A stretch of 64,000 nt of DNA from IMG/VR virus record IMGVR_UViG_3300025015_000010, positions 96,001-160,000 of that record; one strand, given 5' to 3'. A model generated the notes under the pieces. It saw nothing but the letters and a program-made list of their open reading frames with translations, did no database searches and was not told the origin of the DNA. Source of the DNA: a virus. Shown piece after piece: positions 38,148 to 39,856 of the stretch. Every line of letters begins with the position of its first letter. Positions within the stretch are counted from its first letter, which is position 1. The translations under genes were made by a program, and so were the position numbers.

Positions 38148-38426
38148 TAGGAATTTCCTAGGTACTTGTTCATCCGATCATGCCACTTTTGTGAACGAGC
38201 ATAGTGTCGTTCAGCTAGTTCTTTCTGGCTGATCTCGGTAGCTAGATTACCTAAAGCCAGCCAATAAGCAGCTTGGCGTTTGGCACTTAGCATTTGCTGG
38301 TATCGTCTTTGTGACATACTATTTGCGCCTCCGTGTAACCAATAATTGAAATCCAGCGAGGATCAATCCTACAACGCATCCGACCCAGAATCCTTTGTCC
38401 ATATTAGGCTCCGTTTAGTCATTGAG

Positions 38427-38508
38427 ATTATACTATTTTCAAATCGGAAGTCAAGAGATAAATTATTTGAAATATAAGCTTGACTTGCTGATCAGGTAGT
38501 GATACAAT
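38427..38508. promoter_or_regulatory. divergent sigma70-type promoters
   Basis: minus TTGACT-16-TATAAT (38427-38454); plus TTGACT-17-TACAAT (38480-38508). Confidence 0.75.
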
Positions 38509-38514
38509 CTTTGA

Positions 38515-38946
38515 CGTTGAGCAGGTGACATCTGGCAGTGCTGAGTTAGCGAGAGTGATACTCTCATGGAAGCTAGGTGGTTTGCCGATGGCGGGAAAGG
38601 GCGAAGTCAGCGCTCCATCGCGTCGGACACCTGCTGTAACTGGACTCTGAAAAGGGTCCAAAATTAGACAGTTAAGACGAGCAACCGGGGGGATACCTTC
38701 CACCAGGTATTCGTTTAGGGCGTAAGTCCTAAGGATGTGAAAGACTATGGGAAAGTAGATGCCCAGGGATATTTCCCGACGGGTAGTGCCAACGGCATGG
38801 TTAAATGGCAAGTTGATAGTTACGGACGTTTATGCTATACTGGTAAACGACGGGTAATAACCTTGGCCATCTACCGGAATTAAACCACCGGCTATCTTAT
38901 GCAAGTACTAGGGAGAACAGGTTGATAGCCTAGTTCTAGGCTTTTT
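38515..38946 (+). ncRNA. candidate large structured ncRNA (about 430 nt)
   Basis: promoter, multiple helices, long-range GGTGGTTT/AAACCACC pairing, terminator-like end; no plus-strand ORF. Confidence 0.6.
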
Positions 38947-39026
38947 AGAGAAGTGTCCACAATCCCAGCCTTCTCACTGTTTTTTGTCATATAAGATACA
39001 AAATATTTCCTTAGACGGAGGATATC

Positions 39027-39293
39027 GTGAAGAAGTTTTTTGGAGTATGTTGTCTGGCTTTTGTGCTTGTAGTCTCGGCCTGTACTCAAAATAGCCGCGC
39101 CAAGAGTTTTGGAGGCACTGCGACTATTACACTGCCAGCAGGTAAGACTTTAGTAACAGCTACTTGGAAGGATGATCATCTATGGTATTTGACTCGTGAT
39201 CGGTCTGTAGGTGAAACGCCAACTACATATCAATTTCACGAGAAAAGTTCTTATGGCGTGCTACAAGGCGCCATCATTTTTGAGGAGAAGTAA
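39027..39293 (+). CDS. small lipoprotein
   Basis: VSAC lipobox; GGAGG RBS. Confidence 0.75.
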   Translation: MKKFFGVCCLAFVLVVSACTQNSRAKSFGGTATITLPAGKTLVTATWKDDHLWYLTRDRSVGETPTTYQFHEKSSYGVLQGAIIFEEK

Positions 39294-39295
39294 AG

Positions 39296-39856
39296 ATGAG
39301 AATAGCTTTGTTTTTGGTAGTCTGTTTGGCGGCTTCGCCAGTATTTGCTCAGCAGATTAGAACTGTGCAGGTTCCAGAGAATATGCTGACAGCCGAACAG
39401 AAAGCTCAGATTGAAGCCGAGAATCTAAAGTCTAGGGTGGAGCAGTATGGTAACTGGGTTGGTTTCGGAGCCGAACTCGGCCACGCTGTAGATAGTTCTC
39501 TGGGAGCACTGACCGAGCGTGCTGATCAGTTTTCAAAGACTGGCGTGGGTAAGTTTACTCTGGTGTTGGTAGCCTGGAGGGTAATCGGTGAGGATTTCGC
39601 CAGGATTGTTATCGGGCTGGGGCTATTTTTAGTCCTTATTCCTATCTGGGTTTGGTCATTTCATCGGAATGTGGTTGAACGGTCGGTTCTACTGAAAGTG
39701 CTTCCGGATAAGACTCGTGAATATAAAGTCGTAAACAAGCGCGACGAATTCAAGCACAGTAGTGTGGCAGACCAGAAAACGTGTTATATGCTGTGGCATT
39801 GGCTTATTCTAGGCTTAATCGTTGTGCTCAACAGTCTGCTGATGTTCGCAGGCTAA
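39296..39856 (+). CDS. membrane protein
   Basis: signal peptide plus TM segments. Confidence 0.75.
   Translation: MRIALFLVVCLAASPVFAQQIRTVQVPENMLTAEQKAQIEAENLKSRVEQYGNWVGFGAELGHAVDSSLGALTERADQFSKTGVGKFTLVLVAWRVIGEDFARIVIGLGLFLVLIPIWVWSFHRNVVERSVLLKVLPDKTREYKVVNKRDEFKHSSVADQKTCYMLWHWLILGLIVVLNSLLMFAG

What the first reader, a model, noticed from the sequence alone, without database searches (positions are those of the whole stretch)
38480..38946. Second candidate large ncRNA with own promoter and terminator
Seen: TTGACT-17-TACAAT, then about 430 nt without a plus-strand ORF. It contains a domain closed by GCAGGTG/CACCTGC (38521-38635), hairpins GAGAGT/ACTCTC, GGACTC/GGGTCC, TAGGGC-GTAA-GTCCTA, GGGA/TCCC, CGTTTA/TAAACG and GGCTATC/GATAGCC, a long-range GGTGGTTT (38576) with AAACCACC (38882) pairing that crosses the first domain, and a hairpin plus T-run at 38927-38946. 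The G-U pairs and GNRA loop fit the plus strand.
Basis: partly seen in the sequence, partly recalled or inferred. Interest (0 to 1): 0.75.

Follow-up and report, generated by a model that had tools for sequence, protein, structure and literature searches.

The report
New large structured phage leader RNA
An uncultured groundwater phage carries a conserved, intricately folded non-coding RNA of about 430 bases that matches no catalogued RNA family; it starts at an early promoter and probably runs on as the leader of the next gene, and its function is unknown.

Summary
The stretch is real, conserved, structured RNA. Rfam 15 gives no match at E<=10, for the window or for its one diverged relative. 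That relative (L010-L012, same groundwater site, about 78% identical over aligned columns) keeps the promoter hexamers and spacing. It keeps invariant blocks of 49, 28 and 24 nt, although 29-44% of neighbouring third-codon positions differ. It also carries large insertions; the two I folded (115-nt linker, 25-nt tip) are self-contained hairpins. Of 118 predicted pairs, 17 change on both sides and stay paired, and none is broken by substitution (slid controls: 0-3). Ten G-U pairs and the promoter fix the plus strand. No ORF is conserved.

GGCTATC/GATAGCC is broken in the relative. The terminator hairpin is weak there (-2.2 kcal/mol) and competes with a covarying helix. No sigma-70 promoter lies before the next gene. 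The 80-nt spacer is about 80% identical (about 88% up to the Shine-Dalgarno sequence), and its predicted fold pairs that sequence and the GTG start.

I read it as a new two-domain RNA, most likely the 5' leader of an early envelope-protein operon. A free ROOL/GOLLD-like RNA is the main rival.

Only two sequence versions exist in everything searched, and there are no expression data. The scan noted this same stretch in an overlapping window, but not on other DNA.

The parts
38480..38508 (+). Sigma-70 type early promoter: -35 TTGACT, 17-nt spacer ending in TGn (extended -10), -10 TACAAT. Predicted start about 38513-38516.
   Evidence: scan. In the relative both hexamers (TTGACC / TATAAT), the 17-nt spacing and the TGn are kept, while the spacer and upstream DNA diverge.
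38427..38454 (-). Back-to-back divergent promoter (TTGACT-16-TATAAT). It drives the leftward operon that begins with a 27-aa hydrophobic peptide. Context only, not part of the RNA.
   Evidence: (the -35 boxes form an inverted repeat). Not present upstream of the relative's RNA.
38520..38635 (+). 5' domain, a three-way junction. P1 is 38520-27/38628-35. P2 is 38529-36/38572-79 with an apical hairpin. The invariant junction GUUUG is 38580-84. P3 is 38585-38602/38610-26.
   Evidence: P2 has 5 of 8 pairs with compensatory change, P3 has one, and P1 is invariant. Model R1 hits only this place in the genome.
38641..38660 (+). Variable linker hairpin (GGACUCUG/AAGGGUCC region). In the relative it is replaced by a 76-nt branched hairpin plus a GAAA-capped hairpin.
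38664..38911 (+). 3' domain, closed by UUAGAC/GUACUAG and UAAGA..AGC/GCU.UCUUA. It holds:
- hairpin 38691-97/38706-12 with a CCACCA loop;
- the GUAA-capped hairpin 38714-38733;
- an invariant 49-nt block, 38729-38777;
- hairpin 38786-38798;
- a covarying arm, 38807-38867;
- hairpin CCGG-AAUUAAACCA-CCGG, 38874-38891.
   Evidence: The arm helices have 1, 3 and 3 compensatory pairs. Model R2 hits only this place.
38579..38584 (+). Candidate tertiary contact. Junction GGUUUG pairs with loop UAAACC (38881-38886) and would tie the two domains together.
Evidence: Both sides are invariant in the two versions, so the pairing is possible but untested by covariation.
38914..38937 (+). 3' hairpin AGAACAGG/CCUAGUUCU. 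Its loop may also pair with CAACC 38682-38686, a pseudoknot candidate.
   Evidence: (2 compensatory, 1 one-sided change). The pseudoknot has 1 compensatory and 1 one-sided change.
38927..38946 (+).
   Evidence: -7.1 kcal/mol in the window and -2.2 in the relative. It shares bases with the covarying hairpin above. The U5 run and the following AGAGAAG are invariant.
38947..39035 (+). Conserved spacer and translation start region. Three pairings are predicted:
- CUUCUCAC 38970-77 with the GTG start and first codons, 39027-35;
- hairpin 38981-88/38995-39002;
- AUAUUUCC 39003-10 with GGAGGAUAU 39017-25, which holds the Shine-Dalgarno sequence.
   Evidence: 2 compensatory and 5 one-sided changes, none broken. 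The shuffle z is only -1.4, so this is suggestive and not proven.
39027..39293 (+). First downstream gene: an 88-aa lipoprotein-like protein (signal peptide, Cys lipobox; phrog_12728, function unknown). It is linked to the RNA in both versions.

Best explanation
This is a previously uncatalogued large structured RNA of a groundwater phage.

Transcription (inferred): host RNA polymerase starts at the conserved TTGACT-17-TGnTACAAT promoter. The first bases of the transcript already form the closing helix of a 116-nt three-way-junction domain.

Fold (partly shown): a variable hairpin follows, then a 250-nt multi-helix domain with long invariant single-stranded blocks. A junction-loop contact, GGUUUG with UAAACC, probably locks the two domains together.

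3' end (inferred): the transcript most likely does not stop at a dedicated terminator. It runs through a conserved 80-nt spacer into the lipoprotein gene. In the predicted spacer fold, the Shine-Dalgarno sequence and the GTG start are both base-paired.

Proposed mechanism (inferred): the RNA is a giant cis-acting 5' leader. Its folded state, perhaps set by a ligand or protein still unknown, decides whether the start site of the first early envelope-protein gene opens, or whether the polymerase reads on.

Shown: conservation, covariation, strand, promoter conservation, and absence of a match to any Rfam family.
Inferred: co-transcription, start-site occlusion, and any sensing function.
For: Novelty: no Rfam family matches at E<=10 on either version.

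The relative, about 78% identical over aligned columns, shows the pattern of a structured RNA:
- It has invariant blocks of 49, 28 and 24 nt next to indels of 4, 4, 78, 25 and 25 nt. The linker and helix-tip insertions fold on their own.
- Neighbouring genes differ at 29-44% of third-codon positions, so the invariant blocks reflect constraint.
- 17 of 118 pairs are compensatory and none is broken by substitution; slid controls give 0-3.
- Shuffle z is -5.5.
- The fold of the relative alone, projected on the window, gives 14 compensatory pairs.

Strand: 10 G-U pairs, and -109 kcal/mol on the plus strand against -80 on the minus.

The promoter is conserved, and no ORF is conserved.

For the leader reading:
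- The RNA is linked to the lipoprotein gene in both versions, while the left flank differs.
- No promoter-like site lies in the spacer.
- The terminator is not conserved and competes with a covarying helix.
- The spacer is conserved, and its predicted fold occludes the start site with 2 compensatory changes.
Against: - Only two distinct sequence versions exist, so the covariation is a single pairwise comparison, and the structure was derived from that same alignment.
- The start-site structure is not significant on its own (z = -1.4; 22 of 300 shuffles do as well).
- A fold of 430-615 nt and about 20 helices is far larger than any known bacterial cis-regulator. That size fits free 'ornate' RNAs better.
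- The invariant U5 run could still serve as a leaky terminator or a processing site.
- More distant phages have the lipoprotein homologue without the RNA. The gene therefore does not need this leader.
Confidence: 0.5

Rival explanations
1. It is a free-standing, trans-acting large 'ornate' RNA like ROOL, GOLLD or OLE. On this reading it is released as a discrete particle of about 430 nt, by leaky termination or nuclease cleavage at the invariant GGCUUUUUAGAG. It then works as an RNA-only assembly, a protein scaffold or a ribozyme. The downstream gene is merely co-transcribed by read-through.
For: - Its size, multi-domain build, long invariant single-stranded blocks and fast-changing peripheral hairpins are typical of large ornate RNAs and ribozymes.
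- The window version has a usable hairpin plus U5 run, at -7.1 kcal/mol.
- The U5 run is invariant.
- ROOL and GOLLD occur in phages (PMC12286853, found; not read in detail).
Against: - The terminator hairpin is not conserved and competes with a covarying helix.
- No separate promoter exists for the downstream gene.
- The spacer is conserved and shows a predicted structure around the start site.
- No match to the ROOL, GOLLD, OLE or raiA models.
Confidence: 0.33
2. It is a cis-acting processive antitermination RNA, in the manner of HK022 put or the EAR element. On this reading, the folded nascent RNA at the head of the roughly 19-kb rightward early gene block binds the transcribing polymerase and makes it resistant to downstream terminators.
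For: - It lies immediately after a strong early promoter, at the head of a long co-oriented gene block.
- Terminator-like sites follow inside the block, for example at 39253-39274.
Against: - Known elements of this type are 65-120 nt; this one is four to nine times larger.
- It shows no sequence or model similarity to them.
- Nothing here tests binding to the polymerase.
Confidence: 0.08
3. It is an origin-of-replication transcript. On this reading it is a promoter-driven structured RNA that forms a primer or R-loop, like ColE1 RNA II or the phage T4 origin transcripts, at the point where transcription diverges.
For: - It sits at a strand switch with a local minimum of cumulative GC skew.
- A helicase gene lies about 4 kb to the left.
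- An A+T-rich conserved stretch follows the RNA.
Against: - Over the whole genome, the skew simply follows gene orientation and has no global minimum here.
- No iterons or repeats were found.
- The conserved spacer ends in a Shine-Dalgarno sequence and a start codon.
Confidence: 0.04
4. It is not an RNA gene. It would be either protein-coding (the 127-aa minus-strand ORF or the small plus-strand ORFs) or a DNA-level element with chance inverted repeats.
For: - A 127-aa ORF is open on the minus strand in the window.
- The promoter scan alone is not above chance: 5 sites found against 3.9 expected.
Against: - The ORF is not kept in the relative.
- The indels are not multiples of three.
- The ORF has no Pfam or PHROG match.
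- Compensatory changes and G-U pairs point to RNA.
Confidence: 0.02

Closest known systems
ROOL and GOLLD RNAs (large ornate RNAs of bacteria and their phages; Rfam families; PMC12286853)
   Same: A phage-borne, non-coding RNA several hundred nucleotides long, with many helices, conserved unpaired blocks, variable peripheral hairpins and unknown function.
   Different: - No match to their covariance models at E<=10.
- Smaller than either (ROOL about 580 nt, GOLLD about 800 nt).
- Not next to tRNA genes.
- Probably co-transcribed with a gene.
- Multimer formation is untested.
OLE RNA with its membrane partner OapA
   Same: A large structured RNA that lies inside an operon, next to genes for membrane proteins. 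Here those are a lipoprotein and a 186-aa signal-peptide/transmembrane protein.
   Different: - No model match.
- OLE belongs to anaerobic Firmicutes, not phages.
- The neighbouring proteins here show no relation to OapA, B or C.
- No evidence of binding.
Riboswitch and T-box leaders (cis-acting sensor RNAs with an expression platform)
   Same: It starts right after the promoter and lies upstream of, and co-oriented with, a gene. In the predicted fold the Shine-Dalgarno sequence and the start codon are paired.
   Different: - Two to four times larger than known riboswitches.
- No known aptamer model matches.
- No ligand is known.
- No conserved mutually exclusive terminator/antiterminator pair was found.
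HK022 put RNA and the EAR element (cis-acting antitermination RNAs)
   Same: The first transcribed element after an early promoter, at the head of a long operon.
   Different: Far larger. No sequence or structure similarity was detected, and the activity is untested.
Other unnamed large phage RNAs noted earlier in this scan (e1-5645226, e1-306744)
   Same: Promoter-driven folded RNAs of about 400-600 nt in large aquatic or jumbo phages with no catalogue match. One of them also lies beside a strand switch.
   Different: No shared sequence words with any other window. Those families have dozens of members; this one has two known versions.

Membership tests
Any Rfam 15 family (including GOLLD, ROOL, OLE, raiA, HEARO, RNase P, tmRNA, group I/II introns, T-box, riboswitches, 6S, Y RNA) | A match to the family covariance model at or near its gathering score | tested here: not met
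   There are no matches at gathering score over the window and none at E<=10 over 38300-39100. Only unrelated weak hits occur elsewhere in the window. On the relative, only miRNA-hairpin noise appears. ARAGORN finds no tRNA or tmRNA in the window.
Conserved structured RNA (generic) | Base pairs kept through compensatory changes in homologues, above control level | tested here: met
   17 pairs are compensatory, about 10 change on one side, and none is broken, out of 118 pairs; slid controls give 0-3. Shuffle z is -5.5. The caveat is that only two distinct sequences exist.
Independent RNA gene with promoter and intrinsic terminator | Conserved sigma-70 promoter | tested here: met
   The -35, the -10, the TGn and the 17-nt spacing are kept while the surrounding bases diverge.
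Independent RNA gene with promoter and intrinsic terminator | A stable G+C-rich hairpin directly followed by a U tract, conserved in homologues | tested here: not met
   The hairpin is -7.1 kcal/mol in the window but -2.2 in the relative. The covarying hairpin ends 4-5 nt before the U run.
Riboswitch-type cis-regulatory leader | Located in the 5' UTR of the regulated gene, with no promoter in between | tested here: met
   No promoter-like site lies between 38841 and 39027 on the plus strand. The linkage to the lipoprotein gene holds in both versions.
Riboswitch-type cis-regulatory leader | An expression platform: alternative structures that hide or free the terminator or the ribosome binding site | tested here: inconclusive
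   In the predicted fold the Shine-Dalgarno sequence and the start codon are paired in both versions, with 2 compensatory changes. However, z is only -1.4, and no alternative 'on' structure was identified.
Riboswitch-type cis-regulatory leader | Specific ligand binding | not testable with these tools
   This needs in-line probing or binding assays.
Type I toxin-antitoxin antisense RNA (considered because a 27-aa hydrophobic peptide gene is transcribed divergently) | A stretch complementary to the toxin mRNA, and co-occurrence with the toxin gene | tested here: not met
   There is no meaningful direct repeat between the RNA and the peptide locus. The relative has the RNA without that peptide gene.

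The most novel reading that the evidence does not exclude
This would be a new class of very large (430-615 nt), two-domain, pseudoknotted cis-acting RNA. It would sense a host or phage signal, or act catalytically, to gate the first early envelope-protein genes of a large groundwater phage. If so, it would be by far the largest sensor-type leader known in a virus of bacteria.
Probability: 0.25. Interest if true: 0.8.

Novelty: new variant of a known kind. Interest (0 to 1): 0.6.

Why it matters
Large, intricately folded bacterial and phage RNAs are rare, and most of the few known (OLE, ROOL, GOLLD, raiA) still lack a clear function. This one adds a family with clear pairwise covariation and a conserved host-type promoter. 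It is also physically linked to a gene whose start site appears to be occluded, and that linkage offers a simple handle for testing function. A reporter fusion to the lipoprotein gene, with and without the fold, would show whether a 430-nt RNA can act as a cis regulator. Its very narrow distribution and fast-evolving periphery also raise the question of how such folds arise in phages.

Tried and rejected
Searches for further homologues that found nothing beyond the two versions:
- BLAST against 50,697 phage records found no match.
- Exact-block scans of IMG/VR returned nothing or only chance hits inside coding regions (filtered).
- A scan of the metagenome contigs gave 36 hits, all chance matches in coding sequence.
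- A scan of the reference genomes gave one chance hit in a glycolytic enzyme gene.

The synteny route, via homologues of the neighbouring genes:
- I followed homologues of the lipoprotein, the 170-aa protein and the 186-aa protein.
- I then examined their contigs.
- This gave identical copies, one copy with a single SNP (L009), and the one diverged lineage.
- The more distant relatives are gene-dense at that position.

Other negative results:
- BLAST and both covariance models find nothing in five related phage records. This does not prove absence.
- There is no paralogue in the phage's own genome, so the other candidate RNA at 16503-16974 is unrelated.

Ideas rejected:
- A protein-coding reading.
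- An antisense partner of the 27-aa peptide gene.
- A GAAA-tetraloop receptor reading of CCUAAG...UAUGG. The CC covaries with the hairpin's other strand instead.
- A shared phage-specific promoter motif in the spacer.
- An origin of replication inferred from GC skew.

Full report
**What is there**

The window is bases 96001-160000 of a 168,734-bp virus record that CheckV rates 77% complete. Its helicase is only about 27% identical to those of cultured phages. Identical copies come from aquifer and groundwater metagenomes.

At 38427-38508 two near-consensus sigma-70 promoters stand back to back.
- The leftward promoter leads into a 27-aa hydrophobic peptide gene and further small genes.
About 515 nt follow it before the next gene.
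- That gene, at 39027, encodes an 88-aa lipoprotein-like protein of PHROG family 12728, function unknown.

**Is it known?**

No. Rfam 15 gives nothing at gathering score over the whole window. It gives nothing at E<=10 on 38300-39100. Elsewhere in the window there are only two unrelated weak hits. ARAGORN finds no tRNA or tmRNA. The phage's own genome holds no second copy, by nhmmer, BLAST or two covariance models.

**Homologues**

DNA searches of the phage records found nothing. The synteny route worked.
- The lipoprotein has a 68%-identical relative on short contigs from the same groundwater project, L010-L015.
- The roughly 650 nt upstream of that relative are homologous to the RNA.
- Every other copy I could fetch is identical to the window, apart from one SNP in L009.
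- Scans of IMG/VR, the metagenome contigs and the reference genomes with invariant blocks gave only chance hits in coding regions.
- Five more distant phage records have the lipoprotein or a neighbouring gene but no RNA, by BLAST or by covariance model.
- Contexts of the 186-aa neighbour's homologues are gene-dense.

So exactly two versions are known, which is the main weakness of this case.

**Evidence for a structured RNA**

The two phages are close but not identical.
- The 186-aa neighbour is 88% identical in protein and 85% in DNA, with 29% of third-codon positions changed.
- The lipoprotein gene is 70% identical in DNA, with 44% of third-codon positions changed.

Against that background the RNA shows:
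- invariant blocks of 49, 28 and 24 nt;
- stems in which half the bases differ;
- indels of 4, 4, 78, 25 and 25 nt. The linker and helix-tip insertions fold as self-contained hairpins.

The covariation evidence is as follows.
- RNAalifold predicts 118 pairs. Of these, 17 change on both sides and stay paired, about 10 change on one side and stay paired, and none is broken by a substitution.
- With the partners slid by 1-3 columns, only 0-3 compensatory pairs remain.
- A column shuffle of the alignment gives z = -5.5 on the plus strand and -4.7 on the minus. The energies are -109 and -80 kcal/mol.
- Because the structure came from this same alignment, I also folded the relative alone and projected it on the window. 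That gives 14 compensatory, 11 one-sided and 15 broken pairs.
- The global MFE of the window alone is not conserved. Single-sequence folding, at z = -2.1, would have misled.

Ten G-U pairs fix the plus strand, together with the promoter. No ORF is shared. The 127-aa minus-strand ORF is absent from the relative, and the indels break every frame.

**Anatomy**

- **5' domain, 38520-38635.** This is a three-way junction. P1 is invariant, P2 has 5 of 8 pairs compensatory, and P3 has one.
- **Linker hairpin, 38641-38660.** It is variable. The relative has a 76-nt branched hairpin plus a GAAA-capped one in its place.
- **3' domain, 38664-38911.** Two invariant helices close it. It contains a hairpin with a CCACCA loop, the GUAA-capped hairpin (tip extended by 25 nt in the relative), the invariant 49-nt block, a small hairpin, a three-helix arm with seven compensatory pairs, and a hairpin whose 10-nt loop holds UAAACC.
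- **3' hairpin, 38914-38937.** It has two compensatory pairs.

Three long-range contacts are candidates:
- junction GGUUUG with loop UAAACC (invariant, so untested);
- CAACC 38682-86 with GGUUG 38920-24 (one compensatory and one one-sided change);
- GUAGAUG 38755-61 with CAUCUAC 38868-74 (one one-sided change).

**The 3' end and the downstream gene**

It shares bases with the covarying 3' hairpin, which ends 4-5 nt before the U run.
- No promoter-like site lies between the RNA and the gene. The phage's other promoter motif is absent there.
- The 80-nt spacer is about 80% identical (about 88% up to the Shine-Dalgarno sequence). That is better conserved than the lipoprotein gene.
- Its consensus fold pairs CUUCUCAC with the GTG start and first codons, and AUAUUUCC with the Shine-Dalgarno region. 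It shows two compensatory and five one-sided changes and none broken. The shuffle z is only -1.4, so I treat this as suggestive.
- The left flank differs between the two versions, while the RNA-spacer-lipoprotein unit is kept.

**Interpretation**

That this is a genuine, uncatalogued structured RNA I hold at about 0.9.

On how it works, I lean (0.5) to a giant cis-acting leader, co-transcribed with the early envelope-protein genes and controlling access to the first start site or read-through. The main rival (0.33) is a free ornate RNA in the manner of ROOL or GOLLD, released at the invariant U run. Antitermination RNA, origin transcript and non-RNA readings are minor; skew, repeats and ORF checks speak against the last two.

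No expression data could be obtained.

**Earlier notes of this scan**

The same stretch was noted from an overlapping window as a two-domain RNA at a divergent promoter (e1-5729720), which agrees with this report. No look-alike exists on other DNA. Analogous unnamed large phage RNAs have been reported in other genomes. They are only a parallel, not evidence.

Noticed in passing
window 38319-38402 (-): A 27-aa hydrophobic peptide with a basic tail (MDKGFWVGCVVGLILAGFQLLVTRRRK) is the first gene after the leftward promoter. It is followed by overlapping 56-aa and 170-aa genes of unknown function. It looks like a small membrane-active peptide, of the type I toxin or holin-like kind.
   Followed up: partly
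L010:58-215: In the diverged lineage, the DNA upstream of the RNA is different. A second promoter-like site shares the AAAAGTAGTTGA context of the RNA's own -35 box. It is followed by a hairpin-rich stretch of about 120 nt (GUUCUC...GAGAAC), which may be another small RNA.
   Followed up: no
window 39027-39293 versus 39296-39856: Between the two lineages, the lipoprotein is 68% identical while the adjacent 186-aa signal-peptide/transmembrane protein is 88% identical. The lipoprotein is evolving much faster, as would be expected of a surface-interaction or exclusion protein.
   Followed up: partly
window 39253-39274 (+): A terminator-like hairpin plus T-run lies inside the last codons of the lipoprotein gene. 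It could attenuate transcription into the rest of the operon.
   Followed up: no
L010 and L061 (sample ERZ28564264): Both RNA versions, and so both phage lineages, occur in the same groundwater metagenome. Across the samples fetched, the window's version shows only one SNP (in L009) over 591 bp.
   Followed up: partly
window 38813-38841 (+): A promoter-like site (TTGATA-17-TATACT) lies inside the variable arm of the RNA. It is not conserved in the relative, so it is probably chance.
   Followed up: yes
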